From an uncultured Lachnospiraceae bacterium (GTDB lineage: Bacteria > Bacillota > Clostridia > Lachnospirales > Lachnospiraceae): a stretch of DNA of 37,325 nucleotides. The notes beneath the pieces are model-generated. The model was not told the origin of the DNA. It saw only the letters and a list, made by a program, of their open reading frames with translations, and did not search any database. Below, piece after piece: positions 5,254-32,992 of the stretch (the stretch's first letter is position 1; each line of letters opens with the position of its first letter). The DNA lies in assembly GCA_902782975.1 (NCBI GenBank), contig CACZPF010000185.1, positions 1-37,325 on the forward strand. Reading direction: 5' to 3'. The position numbers and the translations under genes were made by a program.

Positions 5254-5280
5254 TTAGCACTCGTCGATAAGGAGTGTTAA
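5254..5280. promoter_or_regulatory. CIRCE element (HrcA operator)
   Basis: TTAGCACTC-gtcgataag-GAGTGTTAA, 17/18 match to TTAGCACTC-N9-GAGTGCTAA with an exact 9-nt spacer, 25 nt upstream of the MMPL ATG. Confidence 0.8.
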
Positions 5281-18019: not shown

Positions 18020-18041
18020 ATTCCTGTTTCTCCGTTCATCA

Positions 18042-19304
18042 TCAGAAACCTCCCCCTGCTTTTTCAAAGGCGCGCCGGTTAAGGCGGATCCAGGTGGTAA
18101 AAGAGGCACAGCGCATCAGCGGAAGGCGGATCTCATTTTTTTCGAGCGCTTCCCTGTAAAAGCTGGAAGCAAAGTCCACCGGCAGTCTGTTGATATACCT
18201 GCAGATATTCTCCAGAACGTCGTCCAAAGACAGATCATTTTGCGCAGACACGACGTTATCCGAAATGATCTTCCCTGTTTCCTGTGCCAGGAGCCGGGCA
18301 TTTACTTTGTCCAGGTATGCAAGAATTGTCCGGATGGCGGCCCAGGCCACATCCTGCTTTTTGGGAAGAATGCGGCATCTTCCTGCCAGGATATCCGCAA
18401 GGACGGGGATATCTCCATTTGTCCTGCACCAGGCCTCAAATTCCAGCCCTTCGGGAAGGCCGATGGAAGAACAGATATTGTTGTGAAGACTGTCTGGGAA
18501 TGCGCCGCTGCCTGAATACAGAAGGTGCATATCCCTCGAAACAAATTCCCAGGTTCTGGGGGAAGGATAGGCAAGCTCTCCCTTTTTCAGATCTCTGGTA
18601 TTCCGGAGAAGTTTTTCCGGATGGTCGGCAAGATAACCTGTGACAAGGGGATGTACGCCCGTTTTTTTTGCCCATTCCTGCCACGAGACGATATCTGCCG
18701 TAATATTATAATGTTTGAATCGATTGGCAAGGGGCAGGGGCATCTCGTAAGAGACTCCCTTATCATTCAGCCGGTTTCCGGCCCCCATGATCAACAGATT
18801 AGACGGGAATGTCACGGTGCCGATGGCACGGTCGTAAACGATCTGGTAAGCCGCCGCCTGCACCTGCCGCGGAGCGGACGAAAGTTCGTCCAGAAACAGG
18901 ATGTTGATTACATCCTCACTGTCGTCGAACAGAAATTCTTCCGGGGGAAGCCATTCTGTGATATGCCTTTCCCTGTCCGGAAAGGGTACCCCCATAAAAT
19001 CGGTAAGCGCCCGCAGCATGACCCGGATGTCCCTTAGGATCACGGTTTTTCCCGTTTTCAGAGCCAGTTCCTGCCGGATCTGCTGAAGGGCGGCCGATTT
19101 TCCTACACCGGCAGGTCCCCAGAGGAACCGGGGATCCACTGTATTCATCAAAGCTCCTGTGCGGATCACGGCTTCGCAGTACTCCACGGTTTCTTTAACA
19201 AACGCCCCTACACTAACCGAAGGGATATTCAGTTCCAGAACATCGACCATTTCAGCCATAGACAGTTTTCTCCTTATCAGATTTCTCTTTTTATCAGATT
19301 TCAC
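18042..19304 (-). CDS. MoxR-type AAA+ ATPase
   Basis: Walker A WGPAGVGKS, Walker B LFLDEL, sensor AGN, Arg finger LANRF, PSPRTWE. Start uncertain (GTG 19304 or ATG 19259). Confidence 0.88.
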   Translation of the reverse strand: MKSDKKRNLIRRKLSMAEMVDVLELNIPSVSVGAFVKETVEYCEAVIRTGALMNTVDPRFLWGPAGVGKSAALQQIRQELALKTGKTVILRDIRVMLRALTDFMGVPFPDRERHITEWLPPEEFLFDDSEDVINILFLDELSSAPRQVQAAAYQIVYDRAIGTVTFPSNLLIMGAGNRLNDKGVSYEMPLPLANRFKHYNITADIVSWQEWAKKTGVHPLVTGYLADHPEKLLRNTRDLKKGELAYPSPRTWEFVSRDMHLLYSGSGAFPDSLHNNICSSIGLPEGLEFEAWCRTNGDIPVLADILAGRCRILPKKQDVAWAAIRTILAYLDKVNARLLAQETGKIISDNVVSAQNDLSLDDVLENICRYINRLPVDFASSFYREALEKNEIRLPLMRCASFTTWIRLNRRAFEKAGGGF

Positions 19305-19350
19305 TTCTTATCAGATTTCACTCTGTCAGATTTCACTTCTTACTGGTTTC
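19274..19350. repeat. 16-17-bp tandem repeat (4+ copies) at the helicase/AAA junction
   Basis: ttatcagatttctcttt / ttatcagatttcacttc / ttatcagatttcactc / tgtcagatttcacttc / ttactggtttc. Confidence 0.85.
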
Positions 19351-22300
19351 CCGTAATCTGTTCGTCCAGTGCATCCAGCTCTTTCTGCAGCTGGACGATG
19401 CGGGATTCATAGATGTTTCCTTTATCCAGTTCTTCTCTTGCCTGTTTCATCTGATCTTCCAGTACGCGGCAGGCGGTTTCTGTCTGCTCTGCTCTGGATG
19501 AGAGTCCCTCCAGCACATGGTCAAGACGCATGCAGCAGCCAAGAGGCCTGTCTGTCTTCATTCCTGCCCGGAAGGTTCCGCCCTCCGGACATCTGAGCAG
19601 AACATAAGGATGCTCTGCCTCCATGTTGTCCGGCAGTACCACGTCAAATCCCTGATACCAGTCAAAAACCTGTTCCCGCGATGTACCGGCATTCCCGGAA
19701 AGCGCCAGGAGCAGTTCTTTTCCGAAGGTCTCCCGCTCCTCCTGGGGAACGGTCTGTTTATTCTTCTGATAAAATGCGTCCGCCTTTTTCAGAACGGTCA
19801 GGAGATGCCTCTTCTTTTCCAGTTCTATCGGTGTTTCCAGCAGAAGGTTCTCGAACCGGTCCAGCTCCTTCTGTTTCTCGCGGCGGGCCATATTAGTGCG
19901 TTCCAGAAGATTGGCAGTTTCCACCCTCTTTTTGACCAGAGGATTGCCGATGGTCAGCGCTTTGATCTCGCTGTAGGTCAGGACCGTATCTGACACATCC
20001 CGTTCCTTCCGGTGGTGAATACTTAATGTCCCGTCCAGAAAGGAATCGATAAAACGCTGCTTATTCTCCAGGATCTGCCAGAGATAAGCGTCAAAGGATT
20101 TCTCCGTGCAGTAGCAGAATTCATACACACGTCTGTTCCGGTTGCCCTGGCGGAGCATCCGGCCTCTTCTCTGGCGAATGTCGGATGGCTTCCAGCATAC
20201 ATCCAGATGATGAACAGCAATGCATCTTTTCTGTACATTCACACCTGTTCCCAGCTTGCCTGTCGAGCCGAGGAGCACCCGGATCTCTCCGTCATTAAAG
20301 GCTTTAAACAGCTTGTCCCGCCGGGCTTCTGTCGCTGCTTCGTGGATATAGGCGATCTCCCTTTCCGGAATCCCGAGCCGCATCAGATGGAATTTCATCT
20401 CGTCATAGATGTTAAACGTGTCCTTGGGCGTGCCGAAATCGCAGAAGATCAGCTGGGTCGTCCCGGGATATTCCCTGTAAAGATCGTATACCTTTCCGGC
20501 ACATACCATGGGCTTACATTCCAGCGTCATGTACTGCGCCTCCGGCATCACAAGTCCCGGATGCGTGCTGCACATACGGCCTTCCATGGTCAGCTTAAGG
20601 CCATTGTCTTCCTTGCTGGAAACCTCACCCAGATGAATGGCTTCGTTCCTCCGGCGCATTTCATCAAAGAATTCTTTCTGGATCTGAAGACGTGGAACGA
20701 TCACCGACTCCCGCCTGCCAAAATCCGGAAGGTCCATGTCCTTTATATCGCCACGGCTGAACTCGCACACATTGGAGAACAGCGCCATCAGCTCCGGCAG
20801 ATTGTGAAACTGGCTGAAGCGGGTCTTAAACCGCCCGTCGATCATCATGTCCACTTCAAAATTTGTATTCTGGTCGCAGAAGGTATTGACCCATTCCGCA
20901 AAGCCGGATATCCTGAGCATTTCCATCTCCTCCGGCTGGAGGTATTTCATCATCACGTAAAGGTCCGCCAGAGAATTCGTGATAGGCGTCGCTGTCGCAA
21001 AGATCACACGGCCGCCCTTTTTCTCGATAAAATGAGCCTTTTCCATCAGTTCGTCCGATTTTTTGCTGCCCTTCCTTGCACAGCCGGAAACGCCGCCCAG
21101 ACGATAGGGCAGGGTGATGTAGCGGTAATTATGTGCCTCGTCCACCACCAGACAGTCAAATCCAAGGGATTCAAAGCAGGCTGTTTCTGTCTCTTTTAAG
21201 GTCTCCAGCAGTTTTTTATATTCTTTCTGGAGTCTTGCGAGAGCACTTTTCATCCTTCCGGCAGTCGAGGGCAGCCGGGCCGCCTTAAGTGCCGCACCGG
21301 CCTGATGGATTTCTTTCAACTTGCGGCTGAGGTAGTAATCTCTTGACATGGTCAGCATATCGAAGGTGCTGTGAGCCATAAAAACGATCCGGGTTTCGGC
21401 TTTACAGATTTTACGCAGGGTCTCCTTACGTACCGCAGGGCGGAAGGTTTCCGGTGTGACAGCCAGGACCTCTTCTTCGGGATACATCAGATGCCAGACA
21501 GATAAAGATTCCGACAGTACCTGCCCCGGGACGGTAATTAATGCCTTCTTTACCGCGCCGATCCGCAGCAGCTCATGGACGCCGGCTGTATATTCAAAGG
21601 TTTTACCTTCGCCGACATCCCCGGCCAGCAGCACATTCTGCCCGGAAGCCTTGATCCGTTCCACCGGTCCTTTCTGATGCTCCTGGAGCTTCACCTCCGG
21701 GTTCAGGTCCGGAAGATCCTGATGGGAACCGTCATATCGGCAGATCGCATAACCGTAAGTGTCACAGTATACTTCGTAAAGGCGTTCCTGGATCTTCGGA
21801 TGGGCGGCGACCCACTCGCGGAAGGCTTTGATCTGGTCTTTCTGCTTTTCACGGGCCAGGAGGGTCTCCCCCTCATTCAGGACATATACCGTCTTCGTGC
21901 CGGAGACGGCCTGGCTTTTTCCCGCTGAACTGTATTCCGGTTTGTCCACCGGATCCCGCACTTCAATTTCCGTACCGTTTATCGTATGTTCAAAGATCTT
22001 GACACCACTGATCCTTGGGGTCCCATAACGGCTGGTATTATTAAAATCATCCAGGATGAGTCCCCCTCTGATGCTGCACTTCCTGTGCAGCTGGTCAAAT
22101 TCGATCTGGGGTTCCGTCACCATGTTCAGAAGATCCCGTATGAATATTTTAAGATAATAATGCGGGATCCAGGAAGCAGCCGGCGAAAAATCGATCTCGT
22201 CCATATCCGGTCTTGCCGGCAGGAGTTCTGTCAGAAGATCGATATTCTCATGGAAACGTCCGTTTTCTCCAAAGCGCGCTTTCAGATCCGCAAGCTTTTT

Positions 22301-22606
22301 GCGGATATTTCCGCGTCCCATCTGCTGACGGGTGAGAAGGTCTCCAGTATCCGGGTCTTCCCAGTAGAGCTTTCCGCGTAATTCACGGTCCAGCTGAAGC
22401 GGTGTAAGGCCCGATGTTTCTTCCATATAGGCAAGATCCACCCTGCCCAGCTGGTTGACAGACATATAAAAAGCATCCTTGGCACTGATCTTCTTTCTCC
22501 CGGGATCTTCTGCCTGCCCCGGGGCCAGCTCTTCATCCGCAAGGCCGATGACCAGATCATCCATATCAAGCGGAATCGGTTTAAAATTCTGCAAAGCTGC
22601 GATCAT
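19340..22606 (-). CDS. SF2 (SNF2-related) helicase resembling the C-terminal half of DarB-like/ICE methylase-helicases; no methyltransferase domain
   Basis: GRVDLAYM, ASWIP, YGTPRI, motif I AGDVGEGKT, II VVDEAH, III ATATP, F.NLPEL, QLIFCD.GTP, GTGVNVQ, VI QRRGRMLRQGN; GAGGAG RBS. Confidence 0.85.
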   Translation of the reverse strand: MIAALQNFKPIPLDMDDLVIGLADEELAPGQAEDPGRKKISAKDAFYMSVNQLGRVDLAYMEETSGLTPLQLDRELRGKLYWEDPDTGDLLTRQQMGRGNIRKKLADLKARFGENGRFHENIDLLTELLPARPDMDEIDFSPAASWIPHYYLKIFIRDLLNMVTEPQIEFDQLHRKCSIRGGLILDDFNNTSRYGTPRISGVKIFEHTINGTEIEVRDPVDKPEYSSAGKSQAVSGTKTVYVLNEGETLLAREKQKDQIKAFREWVAAHPKIQERLYEVYCDTYGYAICRYDGSHQDLPDLNPEVKLQEHQKGPVERIKASGQNVLLAGDVGEGKTFEYTAGVHELLRIGAVKKALITVPGQVLSESLSVWHLMYPEEEVLAVTPETFRPAVRKETLRKICKAETRIVFMAHSTFDMLTMSRDYYLSRKLKEIHQAGAALKAARLPSTAGRMKSALARLQKEYKKLLETLKETETACFESLGFDCLVVDEAHNYRYITLPYRLGGVSGCARKGSKKSDELMEKAHFIEKKGGRVIFATATPITNSLADLYVMMKYLQPEEMEMLRISGFAEWVNTFCDQNTNFEVDMMIDGRFKTRFSQFHNLPELMALFSNVCEFSRGDIKDMDLPDFGRRESVIVPRLQIQKEFFDEMRRRNEAIHLGEVSSKEDNGLKLTMEGRMCSTHPGLVMPEAQYMTLECKPMVCAGKVYDLYREYPGTTQLIFCDFGTPKDTFNIYDEMKFHLMRLGIPEREIAYIHEAATEARRDKLFKAFNDGEIRVLLGSTGKLGTGVNVQKRCIAVHHLDVCWKPSDIRQRRGRMLRQGNRNRRVYEFCYCTEKSFDAYLWQILENKQRFIDSFLDGTLSIHHRKERDVSDTVLTYSEIKALTIGNPLVKKRVETANLLERTNMARREKQKELDRFENLLLETPIELEKKRHLLTVLKKADAFYQKNKQTVPQEERETFGKELLLALSGNAGTSREQVFDWYQGFDVVLPDNMEAEHPYVLLRCPEGGTFRAGMKTDRPLGCCMRLDHVLEGLSSRAEQTETACRVLEDQMKQAREELDKGNIYESRIVQLQKELDALDEQITGNQ

Positions 22607-22657: not shown

Positions 22658-23053
22658 TCAGGTTTTCCCCTTCAGCTTTCCCCTGTCAAACAGGAGCGTT
22701 CCAAGCAGGACAAACAGAATGATCTCGATGCTTTCAAATACAAAGCTTAACTGGATAAATGTAAGGAAGGCATTGATTCCTGCTTCTCCGAATATGTAAT
22801 CAGATACCAGAAACCCTGCCCGGATGTTTACCGGGACCATGACGATGGAGGTCATCACGAGGATCCACAGGCCGGCTCTTTTCCGGCAGACCGGAAGCAG
22901 GCCTGCCAGCACAAAGATCATTACTACAGCCAGGATCGTCCACCAGAGAGATCCTTTGACTGCCGCCGTCAATGAGATGGAGAACGGTATTCCGATCTGC
23001 GTCCCCATGATCAGCTTCTGGTATTTCATTTTTCTTCTGTCATTTTCTGCCAT
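22658..23053 (-). CDS. Small hypothetical membrane protein, about 4 TM
   Basis: AGGAGGAGG RBS; four hydrophobic segments; co-directional within the cluster. Confidence 0.75.
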   Translation of the reverse strand: MAENDRRKMKYQKLIMGTQIGIPFSISLTAAVKGSLWWTILAVVMIFVLAGLLPVCRKRAGLWILVMTSIVMVPVNIRAGFLVSDYIFGEAGINAFLTFIQLSFVFESIEIILFVLLGTLLFDRGKLKGKT

Positions 23054-23086: not shown

Positions 23087-24067
23087 TTATATTGCAAACC
23101 ATCCTAAAAGCATGGATGCCAGGAAGATCGGGTATGCAAGCTGAAAAACTGTCACAATATAACAGGCGGCAATGGCCATACGGCCTGAAATGCCCTGTTT
23201 TTTCAGCCTGTTTTTCCTGCGCCTGCTGAATACGATGCTTTTTGCCTTCTCGACAAGATCCGGGATTCCAAGCACCTGTTCCAGAATCCTGCAGCCATCC
23301 AGCCCTTCGATCAAAGAAGCATTCACTATGCCAAGGACGATATTGATGATCGCGATCATCAAACAGACAAACATATAATATGGAAATGCAACCCCCAGGA
23401 TCAGAAACAGGCCGCCCAGCAGCAGGTTCATTTCGATGCCTGCCGCATAGATCTGAGCCTTTTTAAGGGGCGAACGGATGTGTTTATCGTCGGTCAGAAC
23501 ATAGGCGCCCGGCATGACAATCTTCCACATAAAACCGAACTCGAGCACATGACCGCCATATGCGAGCGCGGCACATCCGTGCGCCAGTTCATGAAGAGGC
23601 ATGCCGATGGCCAGCGCGATCAGATATTCAAACAGCCAGAACATCTCCAGGGTCGATACATGCCAGACGGCATACCGGTGCCAGCACCAGATCCCGCCGA
23701 TGAGGACCGGCAGAAACGAGATCATCAGAATCTGGTTCAACACCGCTGCCACAGCCCTGGCTCCCTTTCTGAAACGAGGACGGACCAGCGTGACCAGAAA
23801 AGACAGGAAGCCGATCCCCATAAAACGTTCCCCATAGGTCACCATCTCATTTTCGGAAAACCAGTCCATCAGTTCCTTTGTGGTTTTTCTTCCCAGTTTC
23901 GGATAGATTTTCATGGGATCGGTTTTTCCATCCAGCCTTTTCAGAAACCTCGCAGCCTCTGCGGGAACGACCTCCTCTGTCTCCAGCACGGCATCTCTTA
24001 TGAGGACCTGCCCTTCCCCCGCAGATGTAAAGATCAGATAGTTGCTCATTACAGGGTATTTTGTCAT
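23087..24067 (-). CDS. M50 (site-2 protease)-like intramembrane zinc metalloprotease with soluble N-terminal (PqqD/RRE-like) domain
   Basis: LHELAH in a TM segment, FGF....PGAYV, AAG..MN, N......LDG; N-terminal FLKRLDGKT; start ATG 24067 behind GGAAGGTG. Confidence 0.8.
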   Translation of the reverse strand: MTKYPVMSNYLIFTSAGEGQVLIRDAVLETEEVVPAEAARFLKRLDGKTDPMKIYPKLGRKTTKELMDWFSENEMVTYGERFMGIGFLSFLVTLVRPRFRKGARAVAAVLNQILMISFLPVLIGGIWCWHRYAVWHVSTLEMFWLFEYLIALAIGMPLHELAHGCAALAYGGHVLEFGFMWKIVMPGAYVLTDDKHIRSPLKKAQIYAAGIEMNLLLGGLFLILGVAFPYYMFVCLMIAIINIVLGIVNASLIEGLDGCRILEQVLGIPDLVEKAKSIVFSRRRKNRLKKQGISGRMAIAACYIVTVFQLAYPIFLASMLLGWFAI

Positions 24068-24177
24068 ATGATCCCACCTTCCGCTAAATGTGCCCATACA
24101 AAAAACGTAGTTACTTATCAATAAAGGAAGTTTTTTTTATTATGTACAGCGACCGGCTGGCCTCCCTGTTGACGCGC

Positions 24178-25761
24178 CTACAGAACCAGGAGCAGTCCTT
24201 CGACCACATTTTTCTGGATCTCAAATTCATTTTCGTCCAGAAGCGCTTTGGTCTGCATGACTGCCGTTACCTCTGTCTGTCCGGTCAGTTCCCGCCCTCT
24301 GACCAGCAGTGTTCCGTCCTCTTCCAGGGCAAGGCTGATGGTAAGAGGACTTCCCTTGGGAAGATCTCCGCAGATCTTCAGCCTGCAGTTCCCGACCTGC
24401 ACACAATCCGCGACTTCTGCAAAAGGATCATCCAGCCGGGATTCATAAACATCGATCGCCACTTCTTTCTGATTGACGTACCGGGTATAGAAGATGTCTT
24501 CTTTTTCCGGAATGGGGAGGGTCTCGTTCCGGTACAGGATGTTGCAGACCTTGCGCTCTTCGTCCACGTAAGCCGCCACACCATAGGTCCGGCTGCTGAC
24601 ACGGATCAGCTTCCTGGTTTCTTCTTCAAAATCCCGGATAAGCTTCCGGCTGTTGTTAAGGACCAGATCCTTTGCATACATGGCGGCTCCTTTTGCCACC
24701 GCCGTATCCAGGTCTCTCGCGATCACGCGGATCCCCGGAAAGCATCCTTCGATCATCCGCATGATCTGGGGCATTCTTGTGCTCCCGCCGGCCAGGATCA
24801 CGCTGTTCAGCCCGGGTATACCTCTGGCTTTCATCGTTTCGTCGACGCGGTTGACGATGTCTCTCAGCTTCAGAAGCCATTCCAGAGTACATGCTTCAAA
24901 TTCATCTCTTGTGACAGTCACCTTTTCTCTCCCGGAAAGGGTGTTTACCGTAAACCAGGTTTCTTCTTTTTCAGAAAGCTTCTTCTTGGCTTCTTCGGCA
25001 TTTATGGCAAGCTCGCCTTCCCCTTCTTTGTCCAGGATCTTTCCGCAAAGCTTGTCTCTCTTTATGAACTCGACAAAGCTTCTGTCCCAGTCGCTTCCTC
25101 CAAGCCTGGTGTCTCCGTCGATCAGCTTTTCCTCGATGGTGTTTTCTGTCACATGGACGACCACCAGATCCGAGGTTCCGCCTCCTACATCCACGACCAG
25201 ATTGTAGCCCTGGAGAGCGTCCAGAGAATCTGCGTTGTAGACAACAGCTACCGGCTCGTCGAGGATATCCCGGACATTGTAACCGGCCATGCGTCCGGCT
25301 TCCTCGGTTGCCTTTCGCTGGTTGCTGTCGAAATAGGCAGGTACCGTGATCACCGCATCCAGGACTTCCTCTCTAAGCTCTTCCTCGGCGTCCTTTTTCA
25401 GTCTGCCAAGGACGAGAGCTGTCATCTGCTGGGGAGAATAGTCTATGTGATCGACCGTAAGGGAAACCTTCTGATGCCCGATCTCCCTTTTGTACAGCGC
25501 TTTTGTTCTGTCCGGATACAGAAGTGCCTCTCCTTTCGCAGTCCTGCCGATATCGATCTCTGCGTCCGGACGGATGCAGACCACGGAAGGGGTCGTTTCA
25601 AACCCGTCCTCGTTGCGGATACATTCTCCTCTTTTGGTAATGTTATCCGGGTAGGCGATCAGGCAGTTCGTAGTGCCTGCGTCGATCCCGACGATCCTGG
25701 GAAAAAACCTGTCGGCTCTGTTATCCGTGTAACCCTTGTTTTTCTTATTCGTACCACCCAT
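24178..25761 (-). CDS. Divergent Hsp70-family protein C (527 aa, no lid)
   Basis: VGIDAGTTN, TPSVV, VITVPAYF, DEP, DVGGGTSD, LGGSDWD, LAGGSTRMP, AVAKGAA, followed by an SBD-beta-like region. Confidence 0.92.
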   Translation of the reverse strand: MGGTNKKNKGYTDNRADRFFPRIVGIDAGTTNCLIAYPDNITKRGECIRNEDGFETTPSVVCIRPDAEIDIGRTAKGEALLYPDRTKALYKREIGHQKVSLTVDHIDYSPQQMTALVLGRLKKDAEEELREEVLDAVITVPAYFDSNQRKATEEAGRMAGYNVRDILDEPVAVVYNADSLDALQGYNLVVDVGGGTSDLVVVHVTENTIEEKLIDGDTRLGGSDWDRSFVEFIKRDKLCGKILDKEGEGELAINAEEAKKKLSEKEETWFTVNTLSGREKVTVTRDEFEACTLEWLLKLRDIVNRVDETMKARGIPGLNSVILAGGSTRMPQIMRMIEGCFPGIRVIARDLDTAVAKGAAMYAKDLVLNNSRKLIRDFEEETRKLIRVSSRTYGVAAYVDEERKVCNILYRNETLPIPEKEDIFYTRYVNQKEVAIDVYESRLDDPFAEVADCVQVGNCRLKICGDLPKGSPLTISLALEEDGTLLVRGRELTGQTEVTAVMQTKALLDENEFEIQKNVVEGLLLVL

Positions 25762-25800
25762 GTATCCGATCCTCTCTTCTCTTTATAAGCAGTCTCGTGG

Positions 25801-25833
25801 AAAATAAAAGCATACCGCTCCTACGGTATGCTT
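25801..25833 (-). terminator. Hairpin with U-tract in front of Hsp70-C (terminator, attenuator or operator)
   Basis: AAGCATACCG-N6-CGGTATGCTT (25808-25833), followed on the minus strand by TTATTTT. Confidence 0.6.
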
Positions 25834-25927
25834 CTATTGTATCAGGCTGTACTTAAATGGCAGGTCCGCATCACGGAAAACGAGATCCGATTTTGAAATG
25901 CGGTTTTTATAGATTTACAATTATATT

Positions 25928-27574
25928 TTAAAATTCGACTTCCTCATTGCCAAGCAGGGCCCTGGAGTGAAGGGTCATTTCGATCCTGGTATTTCCGGTG
26001 GGTTCGGTCCCGTAAACATAGAGGGTACCGTCCTCCTGCAGCCGGAAGGATACCTCTATGACTGCTCCTTTTGGCAGCTGCTGACTGATGGGAAGAACAC
26101 ACTCCCCGATCAGAAGGGTTTCGTCCTGCTCCAGGTAATGTTCGTCCGAAAAATTTTCATATACCCGGAGAGCCACTCTTTTCATATTGTCTTCGGAAAG
26201 GCCGAACCTGGTTCCCAGTTTTTCCGCCGGGAGCGGTTCCCCCCGGAAGATCAGGTTATAGATCTTCTGCGTGCTGCCGCCGGCATCTTCCACGGTAACA
26301 CCCAGGCCATAACTTCTGGAGCTGATGCGCTGCACCGGTCTGACGACAGAGCGCACCTTTTCGATTTCTTCGTGCTGAATGGTCTCTTTAAATTTCTGCC
26401 AGCGCTCTTCATCTTCCAGGATAATAAACGGATCCCCGGTTCCGGCTTTTCCAGCTTCTATTTCCTTCCTGGCAATTTCTGCTGCCTTCATCCTGGCGTA
26501 AGAGGCGGCCCCGCAGGCAACTGCTTCGTCCACATTTCGCCGGATGATATCCGGATCCTCAAGATCAGGCCAGATCTCCCGGATCAGTTCACGGATCTGG
26601 AGCATCCGGGTAGCACCGCCCACCAGAATGATCTTGTCGATCTTTTCGATCCCCTTTTTCTCCAGATTGTCTTTGACTCTCCGGATAACAGTCTCTGTTT
26701 TATCGCGCAGGAAGCGGGTACAGCGGTCAAATTCCTCTCTCGTGATCCGGACTTCCACCGGACCGTCCATACTGCGCACGACAAAACGGGCATTGTTTTT
26801 CTTCTCATTCGACAGGACTTTTTTGGCAAATTCCACATCCAGGCAGAGCTGCTGCTCGTCGTCCACCCGCAGGCTTCTTCCGGATAGAAAAGTCTCCCGC
26901 ACGTATTTTGTGAGCGCATCATCCCAGTCGCTGCCACCCAGTCCGATGTCCCCGTCGATCTCCAGCTCCTGGATGCAGTCCTGCGTCACTCTTGCCGCGA
27001 TCAGGTCCAGCGTGCCTCCTCCCAGATCAATGACCAGTACTACTTTGTCGGTAAGATCGGACAGGGTCGTACAGTGGACCAGGGCCGCAATGGGTTCGTC
27101 CAGGATATCTATGACATTGAGGCCGGCCAGCTTCCCTGCTTCCAGCGTCGCTTTTCTCTGAAGATCTCCAAAATAAGCAGGCACGGTGATCACAACGTTC
27201 CTGATCTTCCGGTCCAGGGCCGATTCTGCATTTTCCACCGCTCTCTCCAGCATAAAAGCCGAAAGCTCCTGTGGCGAAAAGGTCCTGTTCTCCAGGGTGA
27301 TCGCCTCGGTCGTCCTGCCCATCAGCCTCTTAAAGCGGGTCGCCGTCCTGTCCGGATGCAGGATCGCTATCTCCTTTGCCACTTTTCCCACTACATGGCT
27401 CCATCCGTCCTCATCTTCCTGGGATCTTTCGAAAAAAACCGCACTGGGCGTAAGGTTTGTCCCTTCAAAATCCGGGCAGCACGCACCATCTCTGGCCACT
27501 TCGTCGTAATAGCTTACCACTGTATTCGTCGTCCCAAGGTCGATCCCGATGACTTCACATATAAATCGTTCCAT
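25928..27574 (-). CDS. Divergent Hsp70-family protein B (548 aa, no lid)
   Basis: IGIDLGTTN, TPSAV, FKRLMG, VITVPAYF, DLGGGTLD, LGGSDWD, LVGGATRM, AVACGAA. Confidence 0.92.
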   Translation of the reverse strand: MERFICEVIGIDLGTTNTVVSYYDEVARDGACCPDFEGTNLTPSAVFFERSQEDEDGWSHVVGKVAKEIAILHPDRTATRFKRLMGRTTEAITLENRTFSPQELSAFMLERAVENAESALDRKIRNVVITVPAYFGDLQRKATLEAGKLAGLNVIDILDEPIAALVHCTTLSDLTDKVVLVIDLGGGTLDLIAARVTQDCIQELEIDGDIGLGGSDWDDALTKYVRETFLSGRSLRVDDEQQLCLDVEFAKKVLSNEKKNNARFVVRSMDGPVEVRITREEFDRCTRFLRDKTETVIRRVKDNLEKKGIEKIDKIILVGGATRMLQIRELIREIWPDLEDPDIIRRNVDEAVACGAASYARMKAAEIARKEIEAGKAGTGDPFIILEDEERWQKFKETIQHEEIEKVRSVVRPVQRISSRSYGLGVTVEDAGGSTQKIYNLIFRGEPLPAEKLGTRFGLSEDNMKRVALRVYENFSDEHYLEQDETLLIGECVLPISQQLPKGAVIEVSFRLQEDGTLYVYGTEPTGNTRIEMTLHSRALLGNEEVEF

Positions 27575-27597
27575 ACTGTCACCTGCCCTTCCCGCCT

Positions 27598-29220
27598 TTA
27601 CAGCATGACAAGCTTATCCAGCCGTCTTTTTTCCCGCTCGACAGCCTCTTCGTTTAAAAGTGCTCTGGATTCCAGCTCCACCTGGATCCGGTTTCCGCCC
27701 TTTTTCTCTTTTGCCTCCACCTGCAGGCGGCCGTCCTCCCGAATGGTAAAACGTATCAGGATGGGGGAATGCTCCGGAAGGTCCTTGTCGATCGACAGTG
27801 TGCAGGTCCCCAGCAGCCATTTTTCATCCGGATCCACATACCTTTCAAATAAGGTGGTCTCGTAAATACGGATATTGACAATCCGCTGATTGCTGTAGGC
27901 CGTGTAGAGTTCCTTCGTCACAGAGACCGGCACCCCGTCCCCTTTCAATATGAAATGATAGATTTTTTCCTCCCCGTCGTCCCCGATCAGGGCGGCCAGC
28001 CCATAGCTGCGGGAGCTGATCCGGTTCAGGACTCTCGGGGTGAACATCTTTCGCACTTCATAGAGTTTATCGGTATTTCTGCTGCCTGGCTTCTGACCAT
28101 TATATTTGATCCAGCCATAGATGGCCGCTCCGTTGGCTACGGCCCGGTCTGCGTCCCCTGATCCCATGCGGCTGTAGGGAAAGAATTCCGCCAGAAGTGT
28201 CCGGATCTGGGGCATACGCGCAGCCCCGCCGACAAGCAGAACTTCGTCCACGCTTCCGATGCCTTTTTCGTACAGATCCGTCATCAGATCTTCCAGAACA
28301 CTTTTCACCCTTTTCAGGAGATGCTGCGTTACATTTTCAAACTCCTCCCTTGTAATGTGGATCTTCTCTTCCCCGGCTTTCGTATGGACATACATGTCTG
28401 CTTCTTTTAAAGACGAGAGATTCCTTTTCAGCTGTTCCACAGAGAGCCAGAATTTCTGCCTGTCCTCCGTGTTGAATTCTTTTCCCTTCAGGTACGTATT
28501 CAGGATATGGCAGCCCAGGGCATAGTCCCAGTCGCTGCCGCCCAGATGCACATCCCCGCGGTTGGCTGCCTCGTTGATGGAATCCTCCGTTATTTCAGCT
28601 GCCATCAGATCCAGTGTTCCGCCGCCCAGGTCGAATACCAGAACGGTCTTCCCCTCCAGATTCAGCAGCCGTTCACAGTCAAACAGAGAGGCGGCCGGTT
28701 CGTCGATAATGTCAACATTCCTTTCCTCAAGGCCGGCAGCCCGCGCGGCTTCCAGCGTCGCCTTGCGGCCTGCATCGTCAAAATCCGCCGGCACTGTGAC
28801 CACGGCATGGGTGACAGGCGCGCCGAGTTCCTCCTCTGCATCCCTCAGAACACTTTTCAGCACCATGGCGGAGAGCATCTGGGGAGAATAACTGGTTCCG
28901 TAAATTTTCTTAAAGTCCCGGGTCCGGCCCATCTGCCGTTTAAACAGCATGGCTGTACGGTCCGGATAGATGTCCGCACTCTCCCTGGCCTCCTTGCCCA
29001 CCACGTAATAATATTCTGTCCCATTTTCTGATTTCTTTTCGTCAAACCGGATGACCGACGGCGTCAGGCAGCTGCCTGTGCTGTTTTCTATACAGGAAGC
29101 TCTGCCCGTGGTCTCATCATACAGGCTGATCAGCGTATTGGTCGTGCCCAGATCGATCCCGACAACGGTCACAGCGCCTTCAGCCTCCGTCCGGTAAATC
29201 GTCTTATCCTTCTTCTCCAT
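27598..29220 (-). CDS. Divergent Hsp70-family protein A (540 aa, no lid)
   Basis: VGIDLGTTN, TPSVI, FKRQMG, VVTVPADF, DLGGGTLD, LGGSDWD, LVGGAARMP, AVANGAA. Confidence 0.92.
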   Translation of the reverse strand: MEKKDKTIYRTEAEGAVTVVGIDLGTTNTLISLYDETTGRASCIENSTGSCLTPSVIRFDEKKSENGTEYYYVVGKEARESADIYPDRTAMLFKRQMGRTRDFKKIYGTSYSPQMLSAMVLKSVLRDAEEELGAPVTHAVVTVPADFDDAGRKATLEAARAAGLEERNVDIIDEPAASLFDCERLLNLEGKTVLVFDLGGGTLDLMAAEITEDSINEAANRGDVHLGGSDWDYALGCHILNTYLKGKEFNTEDRQKFWLSVEQLKRNLSSLKEADMYVHTKAGEEKIHITREEFENVTQHLLKRVKSVLEDLMTDLYEKGIGSVDEVLLVGGAARMPQIRTLLAEFFPYSRMGSGDADRAVANGAAIYGWIKYNGQKPGSRNTDKLYEVRKMFTPRVLNRISSRSYGLAALIGDDGEEKIYHFILKGDGVPVSVTKELYTAYSNQRIVNIRIYETTLFERYVDPDEKWLLGTCTLSIDKDLPEHSPILIRFTIREDGRLQVEAKEKKGGNRIQVELESRALLNEEAVEREKRRLDKLVML

Positions 29221-29749
29221 AAGGCTTCCTTTCGTAACGGCTTACCTTAACATTGATTTTTTTCAGCACTTTATCCATGTACAGGTAACCTTCTGTATAA
29301 ACCTTCCGAATCTTTTCATTTTCCTCTTCCCGGTCCGTCACCTCAGCCTCAATGACCTTATGGCGGACAGGGTCAAATGAATCTCCCGGTTGTGCCGTGA
29401 TGATCTCCACGCCGTTATCCTCCAGGAATGCTTCCATTTCCTGGAGTCGGTAGCCAAGATACTGGATGGCCAGATTTACGGAATCATCTTTTTCTTTGGC
29501 AGTGCTCAGATATTCCATATCCCGCAGCGTGTTATCCCTCATCCGGATCATGCCGTTCAGATACCGTTTTTCCGAATGTGCCTTCAGATCACGGTATTCC
29601 GTGTAGAACAGATCCTGGGTCCCCCTGTATTTCTCCAGGATCCTTCCCGTCTCGTCAGCTGTCTGCTGAATATTTTCCAGCTTATGTTCCACAGGCCGGA
29701 GGGATGCTTTTATGGTCCCTTTCTGTTTTTTAAGCATACGTTTTTTCAT
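29204..29749 (-). CDS. GrpE-like nucleotide exchange factor (divergent)
   Basis: Helical N-half, then L...GVE...GDSFDPVRH......KIRKVYTEGY....VLKKINVKV (GrpE head pattern); ATG 29749 behind AAAGGAG (alternative GTG 29767); overlaps Hsp70-A start by 17 bp. Confidence 0.82.
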   Translation of the reverse strand: MKKRMLKKQKGTIKASLRPVEHKLENIQQTADETGRILEKYRGTQDLFYTEYRDLKAHSEKRYLNGMIRMRDNTLRDMEYLSTAKEKDDSVNLAIQYLGYRLQEMEAFLEDNGVEIITAQPGDSFDPVRHKVIEAEVTDREEENEKIRKVYTEGYLYMDKVLKKINVKVSRYERKPYGEEG

Positions 29750-29763
29750 CGCTGCTGCTCCTT

Positions 29764-31821
29764 TCACATTCCCCGGCCGGATTCTGTCTGATTGTAAAGC
29801 CTGTCAAAATACTGGATCAGTTTTTCTCTTGCATACCGGGTCCGGACCAGATTCAGCCAGCCAAAGACCGGCGTATGCGCATCCTCCCGGTCATATTCCA
29901 GCCGCACGTTGTCGCCGTACCGGAGGATCCTCCCAAAGTCCGCAGGTTCATCGCTCTTGTTGATGTAGGCCCGTTTTAAATGAAGCCCGACCTCATCTCC
30001 CAGAACAAAGGCGAAATCCAGCACCGTGGAAGCCATGGGGATCTCATATGCTTTTTGTTCATTGAAAACGATCATTCTGGTAGCTCCGGATTCCAGGTTC
30101 TTTTCAAGCCATCTTGTCAGAGACCTGACAGCCTCCGGGGTTCTGAGGTATTCAAACCAGCGCACTGTCGCATGAGGAATGTCAGATGCCGGGTCATCCT
30201 TAAAATGGTCCGAAATGATCTCTACCTTGTCTCCCGGTCTCAGCCGCTGGTGGATCTGTATCCTGGAATGACTGTCATTTAAAAAGGCGTATTTTGCGCA
30301 GATCCCGATGTTTGGGTTGAGCAAAAAGGCAAAGTCCAGCACGGAAGCTCCTTCGCGGATCCGTGCCGGGGTATTATCTTTTTTATAGACGGTGATCTTC
30401 CTGCAGCCGATCTCGTCCGTATCCTGCTCCTCTGCAGGTTTCGGCTCACCCTGCAGGATCCTTCCGTGCATAAATTTCAGATGCTCTTCTTCTGACTGAA
30501 TATAGAGACGGTAGATATTATCGTACCGGTCCTTCATCTTATAAAAGACGATGCCGGTTTCGGGATCCTTTTCCAGCTTGAAAATCGTAAACCGGTAGGA
30601 AGACCGGTGAAGCCTCTCATAATACTGGAAGAACACGGTCTCCGGTTTTTCCGGACAGGTTTGTCTTGTGCTGAAATACACATCGAAAACAGGGACATTC
30701 TTTTTCGTCATAAGGCTCCGGACATCCCCGTCCACCAGTTTGTCGTTGATCTCCTTTAAGATATCGTCCGCATATCTTTCCGAAAAATCAAAACCGTAAA
30801 TATACTGGCCAAGAACTGCATCTTCTATCACCATCTGCTTTACGGTATCGATCAGGCCGCCTTTTCTTTCCAGTGTATCATGGTTTTTAAGGCGCATATC
30901 CCGGTAGCCCTCGAGGATCGCATCGTACATGGGCCGGTTTTCGATCTTAAGACAGAGGGAACCGAGGATCTGGGCCAGTCTGCAGGCACCCAGATGCTGC
31001 GCCGCAGGAATGATCACGCTGCGCGTATGCTCTGCCTTGGCCCTTTTCTGATCCTCCGGGAAGGAATCGATGGTCGTAAGATTGTGGATCCGGTCGGCGC
31101 ATTTTATAAATACGCCGTTCCGGTTATGGCCGGAAGCCAGATGGGAAAGGAACTTCTGATCCGAAAGCACATCCATGTCCCTTTTCTGGGTACCTTTGTT
31201 TTTTTCGATATAGTCATTCACTTTTGTGACGGTGTCCACCATCTCCGCCACGGCAGGACCGAATTTCTCTTCCAGTTCTTCTATGGTGACGCCGCAGTCC
31301 TCCACGACATCGTGAAGAAGCGCCGCGGCGATCACGTCGCTGTCGTGCCCTCCTTCCGCGAGGATGCGGGCAACTGCGATCGGATGCGTGATATAGAGTT
31401 CACCTGTCGATCTGCGCTGACCCCCATGCTTTGCAAAGGCAAACGCGAAAGCGCTCTCCAGCAGGCTCGTCTTTGGAGCGCCATGCTTTCTCATCTCTTC
31501 CAGGACATCGTTGAACTGCCGTTCCGCTTCGAGGCGCTCAGCCCGGGTGGGCAGGGTTTCCGGTTTTTTAGAGTCAGGCTTCGGTGGTGCAGGCGTTTCA
31601 GATGCAGATGTTTCAGGTGCAGGCGCTGCAGGCACAGGTGTTTCAGACGCAGACGTTTCAGGCACAGGCGTTTCAGGCACAGGTGTTTCAGACGCAGGTG
31701 TTTCAGGCTCCGTCCGGGGCACTGCCCCGGGCTCTGTCGGAGCCGGATCGTCAAGTATTACAAGGCCTCCGGTAATATTCATATCTTTCATCCTGTAACT
31801 TCCTCCCTTCCGGGATGTCAT
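29764..31821 (-). CDS. Atypical RelA/SpoT homologue: Pro/Glu/Thr-rich leader, HD (p)ppGpp hydrolase, degenerate synthetase, two TGS domains
   Basis: HGGQRRSTGELYITHP, AALLHDVVED, KCADRIHN; TGS1 GASVLDFAF...LRPGDKVEII; TGS2 ASTVLDFAF...LRYGDNV. Start 31821 (ATGA overlap) or 31791 (GGAGG RBS). Confidence 0.85.
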   Translation of the reverse strand: MTSRKGGSYRMKDMNITGGLVILDDPAPTEPGAVPRTEPETPASETPVPETPVPETSASETPVPAAPAPETSASETPAPPKPDSKKPETLPTRAERLEAERQFNDVLEEMRKHGAPKTSLLESAFAFAFAKHGGQRRSTGELYITHPIAVARILAEGGHDSDVIAAALLHDVVEDCGVTIEELEEKFGPAVAEMVDTVTKVNDYIEKNKGTQKRDMDVLSDQKFLSHLASGHNRNGVFIKCADRIHNLTTIDSFPEDQKRAKAEHTRSVIIPAAQHLGACRLAQILGSLCLKIENRPMYDAILEGYRDMRLKNHDTLERKGGLIDTVKQMVIEDAVLGQYIYGFDFSERYADDILKEINDKLVDGDVRSLMTKKNVPVFDVYFSTRQTCPEKPETVFFQYYERLHRSSYRFTIFKLEKDPETGIVFYKMKDRYDNIYRLYIQSEEEHLKFMHGRILQGEPKPAEEQDTDEIGCRKITVYKKDNTPARIREGASVLDFAFLLNPNIGICAKYAFLNDSHSRIQIHQRLRPGDKVEIISDHFKDDPASDIPHATVRWFEYLRTPEAVRSLTRWLEKNLESGATRMIVFNEQKAYEIPMASTVLDFAFVLGDEVGLHLKRAYINKSDEPADFGRILRYGDNVRLEYDREDAHTPVFGWLNLVRTRYAREKLIQYFDRLYNQTESGRGM
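31586..31705. repeat. 15-bp coding minisatellite, 8 copies (ETPAS/ETPVP pentapeptides)
   Basis: Units such as ggcacaggtgtttca and gacgcaggtgtttca at an exact 15-bp period. Confidence 0.9.
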
Positions 31822-32918
31822 CCCATACGAACTCTTTTAAGGTAATGATAAAAATCGTCATCATCTCTGTCGGATACAATGACCGAACGAAACAGGTTTT
31901 TTTCCACCATCGAATTGACGATCTCGTCAATATGGAGACGCAGAAGCTGTTTTTTATCTGCCTCACCGATCTCATCCCCTGTATCTTTCTGATACAGTTT
32001 AATGACCATATCAGCCACATCCTCGGTGCCTTCGTAAGTCTTAAAATTGGGATAATGCATTAAAAGGTGCATCCCGATCTCTTCACTGGCCACATTCAGG
32101 CTGGAAAGAGAGAGGGCCACATACTGTACGCAGGGTGAAGACATCCTGCCCTTGGAGACAGATACCATACTGCCAAGACCACCGATATACTGACTGGAAT
32201 TGCTCTGGGGATAATGAAAGATCATCTGAACCTTGTCCCAGGTTCCTTTGTAGCGAAGGGAAATGAAGATATTTTTTTCTGAGTTTTCCAGGTCGCCGTA
32301 GTAGATCTGGCGGCCCATGCGGGAGGTAAGATAATTCCAGGTATTGTCCTCGCCGGACTGCATCTTTACTTCTTTATAAAGAGCATCCGCCTCATCCTTT
32401 TTCATGTTGAAGATCGCGGCGCAGCGGATATGGCTGCGGTTTCTCAGGTCGGAACAACAAAGAAGAAGCCCGCTCTTCAGCGCATCCGCCGTATCCTTGT
32501 ATTCTCTGCCTTTAAAGGATGAAGTATCATAATAATAGATCTGATAAAGGCCTTTGAGGTTAAGCCTTCTCGCCTCCGGGAGGTCGTCCTGATTCTCCTT
32601 CAGGCTGCTGACAGCCATAAGATCCGTAAAAAGAAGTTCGTCGATCGTATAATCAAAAAGCTTGCTGAGTTTGTATAACAGGGGGAAAAGACTGGGATTG
32701 TTGTCGGATACTTTAAGTCTGGTCAGCATGGAAGACGCACATCCGATATATCTGGCCAGTTCGATCTGATTTATCTGAAAGGCTGTTTTGATGTATTCAA
32801 CGTTTGCGGCAAGAGTCCGGTTGATGGCCTCCTGCATCTCCATACTGGAAGCTGTCAACTTTTCGGCTCTGTTCTCTAACTCTTTGTGTATGTTACCGAT
32901 ATCTTTTTTTATCGCCAT
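31818..32918 (-). CDS. XRE/Cro-like HTH protein with a large uncharacterised C-terminal domain
   Basis: INQIELARYIGCASSMLTRL.....P....LYKLSKLFDYTIDELL is a typical XRE HTH; AAGGAGGAGG RBS; first gene of the cluster. Confidence 0.75.
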   Translation of the reverse strand: MAIKKDIGNIHKELENRAEKLTASSMEMQEAINRTLAANVEYIKTAFQINQIELARYIGCASSMLTRLKVSDNNPSLFPLLYKLSKLFDYTIDELLFTDLMAVSSLKENQDDLPEARRLNLKGLYQIYYYDTSSFKGREYKDTADALKSGLLLCCSDLRNRSHIRCAAIFNMKKDEADALYKEVKMQSGEDNTWNYLTSRMGRQIYYGDLENSEKNIFISLRYKGTWDKVQMIFHYPQSNSSQYIGGLGSMVSVSKGRMSSPCVQYVALSLSSLNVASEEIGMHLLMHYPNFKTYEGTEDVADMVIKLYQKDTGDEIGEADKKQLLRLHIDEIVNSMVEKNLFRSVIVSDRDDDDFYHYLKRVRMG

Positions 32919-32963: not shown

Positions 32964-32992
32964 ATTATAAGGGGGAGGCCCTCATTCGTCAA
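32964..32992 (-). promoter_or_regulatory. sigmaA-type promoter of the 12-gene cluster
   Basis: TTGACG (32992-32987), 17-nt spacer, TATAAT (32969-32964); AT-rich upstream. Confidence 0.85.

What the first reader, a model, noticed from the sequence alone, without database searches (positions are those of the whole stretch)
24178..29749. Three tandem divergent lid-less Hsp70 paralogues with a private GrpE and no J-domain protein
Seen: all three keep ATPase motifs (GID[LA]GTTN, the Lys of [FY]KR, D[LV]GGGT.D). All share non-canonical features: DEP in place of NEPTAA, LGGSDWD, the hydrophobic DVLLLD interdomain linker replaced by R[IV]SSR[ST]YG after a variable insertion, and termination shortly after SBD-beta (527-548 aa), so the alpha-helical lid is missing. 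No HPD-containing J-domain ORF and no CIRCE are found near them. Known: canonical DnaK depends on the linker, the lid and DnaJ for allostery. Inference: a subfamily that arose by local triplication and diversified, possibly acting as J-independent sensors, a hetero-oligomer or dedicated-client chaperones.
Basis: partly seen in the sequence, partly recalled or inferred. Interest (0 to 1): 0.78.

Follow-up and report, generated by a model that had tools for sequence, protein, structure and literature searches.

The report
Paired lidless Hsp70s, swappable binding domain
Three intact, lid-less Hsp70 genes and their own GrpE-like gene sit in a gut-bacterial genomic island; they belong to a rare two-type family related to predicted bacterial 'conflict' systems, and because one type exchanges its binding domain between strains, it likely acts as a sensor of foreign proteins rather than as a folding chaperone.

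Summary
Three intact Hsp70s (540, 548, 527 aa; 36-40% identical) keep every catalytic residue. They lack the lid, the VLLL linker and the DnaJ-contact residues R167/N170/T173. A GrpE-like gene is adjacent and no J-protein is nearby.

'Local triplication' is not supported: an AU test rejects H1+H2+H3 as one clade (p=0.0001). They are an old type-A/type-B pair plus a second A copy. The same pairing recurs in relatives, inferred from shared contig lengths.

The subfamily (60 sequences; named members are Lachnospiraceae) is sister to the lid-less Hsp70s of GAP1-N2/DO-GTPase2 conflict systems (Kaur 2020), but this locus has no GTPase, GAP1 or J-like scaffold. The genes are cargo between an HTH-barrel + hydrolase-type RelA head and a SNF2-MoxR-vWA tail. 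In another genome this frame carries a DO-GTPase cassette instead.

In relatives, the type-B binding domain is swapped (NBD 100%, SBD 69% identical) while type A's is not. Best reading: a J-independent, GrpE-reset sensor/relay pair in a conflict-type island. This is inferred; no function was tested. New variant of a known kind.

The parts
32964..32992 (-). sigma70-like promoter (11 of 12 consensus matches) upstream of the HTH gene; probable start of the operon
   Evidence: such sites overall are not above chance (23 vs 18.6 in shuffles), so the position is the argument
31818..32918 (-). XRE-type HTH + 8-stranded beta-barrel + helical tail (366 aa); conserved head gene
   Evidence: AF2 model; fold hits; 34 relatives
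29764..31821 (-). RelA/SpoT homologue with HD hydrolase domain, no recognisable synthetase, two TGS domains, no ACT; Pro/Glu/Thr-rich N-terminal repeat (685 aa)
29204..29767 (-). GrpE-like protein (ATG at 29749 gives 181 aa)
   Evidence: Pfam 1e-15
27598..29220 (-). H1, lid-less Hsp70, type A (540 aa)
25928..27574 (-). H2, lid-less Hsp70 outside type B, grouped with type A (548 aa; long pre-linker insertion, no terminal helix)
25808..25833 (-). hairpin followed by a U-rich run between H2 and H3 (terminator-like or RNA-stabilising element)
   Evidence: z -2.8; 1 of 200 shuffles as stable
24178..25761 (-). H3, lid-less Hsp70, type B (527 aa); the type whose SBD is exchanged in relatives
23087..24121 (-). 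M50-family intramembrane metalloprotease (HExxH; probable ATG at 24067); membership of the module not tested
22658..23053 (-). small membrane protein, no family
19340..22606 (-). SNF2/DarB-like helicase, island tail; 41% identical to its counterpart in G228
18042..19304 (-). MoxR-like AAA ATPase, island tail
16793..18109 (-). DUF2201 metallopeptidase-vWA protein, island tail
15286..16746 (-). PcfJ-like protein, last gene of the island

Best explanation
The three genes are intact lid-less Hsp70s of two ancient types (A, A', B) that likely work, with their own GrpE-like factor and likely without an HPD J-protein, as the sensor-and-relay core of a conflict-type island: type B's exchangeable binding domain would recognise foreign or damage-linked proteins, and the conserved type A would pass the signal on. 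SHOWN: anatomy, intact catalytic residues, loss of J-contact residues, the A/B split, sister relation to GAP1-N2-system Hsp70s, SBD exchange in type B of relatives, and the shared island frame. INFERRED: (1) ATP binding docks NBD and SBD (the AF2 model resembles ATP-state DnaK). (2) Without a lid, clients bind briefly, which suits detection more than folding. (3) Client binding or a partner, not DnaJ, triggers hydrolysis, and GrpE resets the cycle. (4) The output runs through the co-transcribed alarmone hydrolase, the HTH-barrel regulator and possibly the M50 protease. Steps 3 and 4 have no direct evidence.
For: Catalytic D8, K70, E171, D194, D201 are kept in 60 of 60 subfamily members and T199 in 59. 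R167 is kept in 1/60, N170 in 3/60, T173 in 2/60, V218 in 2/60 and D393 in 0/60, against 69/69 each in canonical DnaKs; R167, N170, T173, V218 and linker residues 388-392 are listed as DnaJ-binding or stimulation residues in PMC4022485 (passages). The NBD tree places the subfamily as sister (FastTree 0.93) to 86 lid-less Hsp70s that include those in DO-GTPase2 and/or GAP1-N2 loci L037, L024, L121, L128 and L053. G228 has the same HTH-RSH head and SNF2-AAA-vWA tail (37-46% identity) around a cassette with a ZnR-DO-GTPase2-like protein (hhalign 96%), kinases, PP2C, vWA and a DUF4011 helicase-nuclease. In type-B pairs with 80-90% NBD identity the SBD averages 56%, against 84% in type A; P0175/P0549 are 100% identical in the NBD and 69% in the SBD. 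Genomes whose A copies are 97-100% identical carry B SBDs 68-71% identical. In 4 of 4 canonical DnaK pairs the SBD is the more conserved domain. Distribution is patchy: 0 of 135 same-genus, 0 of 400 family and 0 of 400 order genomes. Lid-less DnaK-like domains are proposed as sensors in EACC1-protease defence modules (PMC12642450, passages).
Against: The locus and genome draft show no GAP1, DO-GTPase or recognisable toxic effector (the genome is 77% complete). No PADLOC model fits well (best E 6e-4). The SBD-exchange signal comes mostly from one lineage (clusters P0035/P0037/P0038/P0043/P0046), the pairs are not independent, and no close orthologue of the window's own H3 was retrieved, so exchange is not shown for H3 itself. 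No second locus of the subfamily could be read directly, so a J-like gene in other copies is not excluded. An alarmone hydrolase would dampen rather than trigger a stress response, which fits awkwardly with classical defence. A docked AF2 conformation is not evidence of allostery.
Confidence: 0.42

Rival explanations
1. Dedicated-client chaperones or assembly factors for the island's own products (RSH, M50 protease, SNF2/MoxR/vWA machinery); the B-type SBD changes because the neighbouring cargo changes.
For: The substrate pocket is retained (F426 or Y in 58/60, Q433 54/60, V436 52/60); private GrpE; HscA and HscC are specialised precedents (PMC13580251 section 6); a MoxR-vWA chaperone pair lies in the same island.
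Against: G228 has the same HTH-RSH head and SNF2-AAA-vWA tail with no lid-less Hsp70, so those proteins do not need it; B alleles differ between genomes with nearly identical A copies.
Confidence: 0.27
2. An accessory stress module: J-independent holdases plus an alarmone hydrolase that speed recovery from gut stresses, with no role in conflict.
For: Co-transcription with an RSH whose HD motifs look intact; sigma70-like promoter and no CIRCE; strain variants are mostly synonymous.
Against: General chaperones have a conserved SBD; the family is rare and patchy; its nearest relatives sit in predicted conflict operons.
Confidence: 0.16
3. The proteins still depend on a non-canonical (HPD-less) J-like partner, as in GAP1-N2 loci, encoded elsewhere or lost from this copy, so the trio is a partial system.
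For: The sister clade also lacks R167 (3/86) and sits beside J-like scaffolds without HPD; the genome is only 77% complete.
Against: The subfamily has further changes absent from the sister clade (T173 2/60 vs 69/86; V218 2/60 vs 75/86); the window operon is continuous from HTH to PcfJ with no such gene.
Confidence: 0.12
4. Redundant or decaying duplicates with no joint function.
For: H2 lacks the terminal helix; H3 lies behind a terminator-like hairpin.
Against: Open frames and ribosome-binding sites; H2's short end is shared with 85-90% identical orthologues; 8 of 9 listed strain variants in H2 and H3 are synonymous; A+B pairing recurs.
Confidence: 0.03

Closest known systems
HSP70+GrpE theme of GAP1-N2-type DO-GTPase conflict systems (Kaur, Burroughs, Iyer, Aravind 2020, PMC7159879; section 29 read whole, plus passages)
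   Same: Sister clade in the NBD tree; same lid-less end, pre-linker insertion, S[KR]S[FY]G motif, Q442E and loss of R167; private GrpE; often two Hsp70 genes; the same island frame carries a DO-GTPase cassette in G228.
   Different: No GAP1, DO-GTPase or FNIII/J scaffold here; two full NBD+SBD types instead of Hsp70 plus Hsp70-vWA or NBD-only; linked to an HTH-barrel and a hydrolase-type RSH, which section 29 does not mention.
E. coli HscC (with DjlB/DjlC) and HscA (with HscB)
   Same: Specialised Hsp70 paralogues with shortened lids beside a canonical DnaK (PMC13580251 section 6).
   Different: Both keep R167, N170, T173 and a hydrophobic linker, have their own J-proteins, retain 83-113 residues after the SBD, and branch outside this clade.
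Canonical DnaK-DnaJ-GrpE
   Same: NBD catalytic set, P143/R151, SBDbeta fold and pocket; the model superposes on ATP-state DnaK 4B9Q (TM 0.80).
   Different: NCBIfam scores 226-244 bits against cut-offs of 648-822; no lid, linker, J-cleft or CIRCE.
Lid-less DnaK-like domains fused to EACC1-protease defence modules (PMC12642450, preprint; passages)
   Same: Lid-less Hsp70 proposed as a sensor of misfolded proteins or phage stress; a protease is adjacent here too (M50).
   Different: Those are about 50% identical to DnaK and fused to a cysteine protease; no EACC1 or caspase was seen here; relatedness not tested.
Hsp110-Hsp70 heterodimer (PMC13580251; passages)
   Same: Precedent for two diverged Hsp70 paralogues working as a pair after loss of the linker and J-binding.
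   Different: Eukaryotic, keeps an extended lid and replaces GrpE; here GrpE is retained.

Membership tests
Hsp70 superfamily | actin-like NBD with catalytic D8/K70/E171/D194/T199/D201 and a beta-sandwich SBD | tested here: met
Canonical DnaK | score above the equivalog cut-off; DVLLLD linker; alpha-helical lid | tested here: not met
Canonical DnaK | J-binding cleft R167/N170/T173 | tested here: not met
   D/D/A, D/D/I and D/D/V in H1, H2, H3
HscA / HscC / YegD | branching with the E. coli protein; cognate J gene (HscA, HscC) or NBD-only architecture (YegD) | tested here: not met
GAP1-N2 DO-GTPase system, HSP70/GrpE theme | lid-less HSP70 of that clade plus a GrpE gene | tested here: met
   sister group rather than nested; FastTree 0.93; shared signatures
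GAP1-N2 DO-GTPase system, HSP70/GrpE theme | GAP1-N2 gene in the locus | tested here: not met
   no Pfam hit in 29 window ORFs; a home-made profile found none in the draft genome but also missed a suspected divergent copy in G228
GAP1-N2 DO-GTPase system, HSP70/GrpE theme | ZnR-DO-GTPase gene in the locus | tested here: not met
GAP1-N2 DO-GTPase system, HSP70/GrpE theme | FNIII protein fused to a J-domain or TPR | tested here: not met
Biological conflict system (general criteria in PMC7159879 section 6, passage) | patchy presence among close relatives | tested here: met
   0 of 135 same-genus genomes
Biological conflict system (general criteria) | variable cargo in a conserved frame; hypervariable recognition segment | tested here: inconclusive
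   one other complete frame (G228); SBD exchange mostly in one lineage
Anti-phage defence system | protection against phage | not testable with these tools
   PADLOC gives no convincing model
Long RSH subgroups RshA-D (PMC3153485, passages) | HD plus SYNTH domains, in Actinobacteria, Bacteroidetes, Bacilli or delta-proteobacteria | tested here: not met
   no SYNTH hit or ExQIRT motif; HD-TGS-TGS in a Lachnospiraceae-type host; no tree built
Calycin/avidin-type ligand-binding barrel (HTH protein) | 8-stranded barrel with a ligand pocket | tested here: inconclusive
   best Z 9.4 (rmsd 3.2, 108 aligned) to a designed barrel; streptavidin Z 8.0

The most novel reading that the evidence does not exclude
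A new class of bacterial immune receptor built from Hsp70 itself. A conserved type-A Hsp70 pairs with a type-B Hsp70 whose peptide-binding domain is swapped between strains like a receptor allele. The pair detects invader proteins without DnaJ and signals to a dedicated alarmone hydrolase and a small-molecule-binding HTH regulator, which head a family of islands with exchangeable conflict cargo.
Probability: 0.2. Interest if true: 0.88.

Novelty: new variant of a known kind. Interest (0 to 1): 0.62.

Why it matters
What lid-less, linker-less bacterial DnaK derivatives do is stated as an open question in a 2026 review (PMC13580251, section 6). This family offers a compact, GTPase-free test case: two types, a private GrpE, and natural alleles that share an identical ATPase domain but differ by 30% in the binding domain. 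Client specificity, J-independence and A/B cooperation can therefore be tested directly. If the sensor reading holds, the Hsp70 peptide pocket, normally highly conserved, has been turned into a variable receptor coupled to alarmone control.

Tried and rejected
Complex prediction of H1 (18-540) with the H3 NBD (20-396) returned 'no answer', score 0.00; it is not used either way.

The search for related loci with the family alignment was swamped by ordinary DnaK in all three collections; those loci served as outgroups. Viral scans with P0158, the HTH alignment and a motif pattern gave no subfamily locus; plasmids gave only two ~35% hits.

No second readable locus of the subfamily was found with Hsp70 queries in 60 relatives, 400 family, 135 genus and 400 order genomes (overlapping draws; only 3 candidates scored per genome). 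HTH queries in two further genera (88 and 34 genomes), the genus of G228 and 251 relatives of G228 found nothing new.

RNA-library contigs at 99% identity lie on H1, H2, H3, RSH and HTH in three runs. DNA carry-over and selection of the runs by this stretch cannot be excluded, so expression is not claimed.

The G228 1053-aa protein looks GAP1-like by eye but was not confirmed. Atlas searches gave only generic Hsp70 or unnamed clusters. No att-like repeat or integrase was found. Misbinning was considered because PheT is only 38% identical to four same-genus PheTs; it was rejected because Nth is 74-83% identical and the contig's tetranucleotide profile ranks 3rd of 84.

Literature searches found no paper on this subfamily; subscription journals and the supplement of Kaur 2020 were not seen.
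Full report
OBSERVATION. The window is a whole contig (C185) of a 77%-complete draft genome. Directly downstream of pheST, a minus-strand run of genes reads HTH (366 aa), RSH (685), GrpE-like (181-187), H1 (540), H2 (548), H3 (527), M50 protease, small membrane protein, SNF2 helicase, AAA ATPase, DUF2201-vWA and PcfJ. The AF2 model of H1 (mean pLDDT 88) has a complete NBD and SBDbeta, a disordered insertion at 377-391 and one terminal helix. It superposes best on domain-docked, ATP-state structures (4B9Q TM 0.80; ADP-state 2KHO 0.53). The genome has a normal hrcA-grpE-dnaK operon with CIRCE on C209, a grpE-Hsp70-J-protein cluster on C226, and 5 J-domains over cut-off, so these three genes are accessory.

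FAMILY. A search with H1 returned 46 close relatives, nearly all 493-558 aa, before scores fell to distant Hsp70s; a profile search added more. In an NBD tree of 231 sequences (330 columns, FastTree, rooted on YegD) 60 sequences form the subfamily (0.965). It is sister (0.93) to 86 other lid-less Hsp70s; the next group out contains Hsp70-vWA fusions. DnaK, HscA and HscC lie outside. Members of the sister group with readable DNA sit in operons with GrpE, a J-like/zinc-ribbon/FN3 scaffold, DO-GTPase2 and/or GAP1-N2 (L037, L024, L121, L128, L053). This is the HSP70/GrpE theme of Kaur et al. 2020 (PMC7159879, section 29 read whole). The three named members or partners of the subfamily are Lachnospiraceae: Ca. 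Blautia merdipullorum, Lachnoclostridium sp. An196 and, for the HTH, Ca. Mediterraneibacter excrementigallinarum (family assignment of the first and third recalled). The window's own stretch recurs at about 99% identity in scattered contigs of four animal-gut DNA runs, two of which look like one data set.

RESIDUES. The ATPase set is intact. DnaJ-related positions are lost: R167 1/60, N170 3/60, T173 2/60, V218 2/60, D393 0/60, against 69/69 in the canonical group (roles of the first four and of the linker from passages of PMC4022485). R167 is mostly Asp, a charge reversal that would be expected to repel the HPD aspartate (inference; the R167-HPD contact is recalled). The sister clade has also lost R167 (3/86) but keeps T173 and V218 and has HPD-less J-like neighbours. 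The subfamily therefore looks one step further from any J-domain. The peptide pocket is kept.

NOT A LOCAL TRIPLICATION. In IQ-TREE (27 rows chosen from the family and its sister group, LG+G4), H3 falls in a type-B clade (97/97) that excludes H1 and H2. Holding the three together costs 77 log-likelihood units, p-AU 0.000115. Type A is less well supported as a clade (80; unresolved).

CONTEXT IN RELATIVES (INDIRECT). Neighbourhoods of relatives could not be read, so I matched longest-contig lengths. Of 179 distinct lengths of 5 kb or more carrying a subfamily Hsp70, 20 carry more than one cluster. All 20 combine type B with type A: 17 A+B and 3 A+A+B, as in the window (types). Member lists were partial (up to 15 per cluster, 20 clusters), so the other 159 say nothing. 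This shows shared contigs, not adjacency.

VARIABLE BINDING DOMAIN. Among 238 distinct full-length members (165 A, 73 B), SBD identity tracks NBD identity in type A (98.8/98.3, 91.6/91.3, 85.7/83.6) but not in type B (98.0/88.2, 93.5/85.0, 83.9/55.7). P0175 and P0549 are identical up to the pre-linker insertion and 45-85% identical per 20-residue window across the SBD. Genome pairs with A copies 97-100% identical have B SBDs 68-71% identical. One pair with 98-99% identical A copies carries B copies only about 50% (NBD) and 43% (SBD) identical. In canonical DnaK pairs the SBD is the more conserved domain (4 of 4). Caveats: the pairs are not independent, most of the signal is one lineage, two other lineages show the same direction more weakly (92/98 vs 80/73; 78/77 vs 67/51), and the window's H3 has no close orthologue in hand.

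ISLAND FRAME. The HTH gene is followed by the HD-TGS RSH in all 4 other genomes with a strong HTH hit among 300 family genomes. In G228 the pair (41% and 46% identical) heads a cassette of YARHG, vWA-TM, a ZnR-DO-GTPase2-like protein (hhalign 96%, E 3e-9), FtsW, PBP, two kinases, PP2C, vWA and a DUF4011 helicase-nuclease. It ends in SNF2-AAA-DUF2201 genes 37-41% identical to the window's tail, followed by a short GrpE-like gene. G228 has no lid-less Hsp70. G256 has the HTH-RSH pair on one contig and, on another, the classical GrpE / lid-less Hsp70 / J-like / DO-GTPase / GAP1 set beside a similar kinase-PP2C-vWA block. In G005, G026 and G256 the pair is not followed by such a cassette on the contigs read. 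So the Hsp70 trio is one cargo of a frame that elsewhere carries GTPase-type conflict genes; this rests on one other complete example.

HEAD GENES. The RSH keeps the HD motifs in the window, G228 and G005 and shows no synthetase motif (motif roles recalled); the genome has a separate Rel. The HTH protein's middle domain is an 8-stranded barrel of uncertain family.

INTEGRITY. The frames are open and ribosome-binding sites are present. There are orthologues at 85-90% for H1 and H2 and 77-81% for GrpE. Of the 35 listed strain variants falling in these genes, H2 has 5 of 5 synonymous, H3 3 of 4 and RSH 8 of 8 (only the best-supported 40 variants per call were shown; none fell in H1). A stable hairpin separates H3 from H2, so type B may be expressed at a different level.

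MECHANISM AND VERDICT. The anatomy fits an ATP-switched, GrpE-reset binder with short client dwell time and no ordinary J input. A swappable SBD in one partner, patchy distribution and conflict-system ancestry favour a sensor/relay role (0.42) over a dedicated-client chaperone (0.27), a stress holdase (0.16), a partial J-like-dependent system (0.12) or decay (0.03). It is not a member of the GAP1-N2 systems, because three defining genes are missing, but it probably derives from their Hsp70 arm. Earlier AI notes on other genomes reached the same closest-known system for other lid-less Hsp70 operons (seen after I had found it); no note matched this HTH-RSH arrangement. Papers seen: PMC7159879 (section 29 and passages), PMC13580251 (section 6 and passages), and passages only of PMC11019930, PMC4022485, PMC3153485 and PMC12642450. 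Supplements were not read; the source data of Kaur 2020 may list members of this subfamily.

Noticed in passing
window 33085-35478: PheT is only 38% identical to PheT of four same-genus genomes, while Nth on the same contig is 74-83% identical; it is the only pheT in the draft, so pheST may have been replaced by a foreign copy next to the island.
   Followed up: partly
window 5254-5280: One-mismatch CIRCE-like inverted repeat between the TetR gene and an MMPL transporter gene; possibly a TetR operator or HrcA control of a transporter.
   Followed up: no
window 19263-19342: Four copies of a ~17-bp unit between the SNF2 and AAA genes, with indel variants in other strains; the AAA start codon lies in this array.
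   Followed up: no
window 31562-31708: 15-bp tandem repeats encode a Pro/Glu/Thr-rich disordered N-terminus of the RSH that the four homologues lack.
   Followed up: partly
window 29764-32918; L019, L021, L022, L023: The HTH-barrel + HD/TGS hydrolase-type RSH pair is itself an apparently undescribed two-gene module; the second TGS repeat is present only in the window and G228.
   Followed up: partly
G228:C73:58000-95999 (L291, L019): A ~36-kb island with DO-GTPase2-like, vWA, FtsW, PBP, kinase/PP2C and DUF4011 helicase genes, an orphan GrpE-like gene and an RpoD-type sigma factor gene.
   Followed up: partly
L306:5925-7844: A glycosyl hydrolase family 3 fusion sits directly upstream of GrpE in the G256 GAP1/Hsp70 system.
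   Followed up: no
P0203, P0211, P0213, P0219, P0246, P0314: Tandem Hsp70-Hsp70 fusions and TIR-Hsp70 fusions occur among the lid-less relatives, in line with paired action and immune contexts.
   Followed up: partly
G000:C226:10-3862: A second accessory cluster: GrpE, 585-aa Hsp70 and a J-domain protein with a SEC-C-like tail.
   Followed up: no
L273-L275: Three large viral contigs carry full-length DnaK, two of them with an adjacent DnaJ.
   Followed up: no
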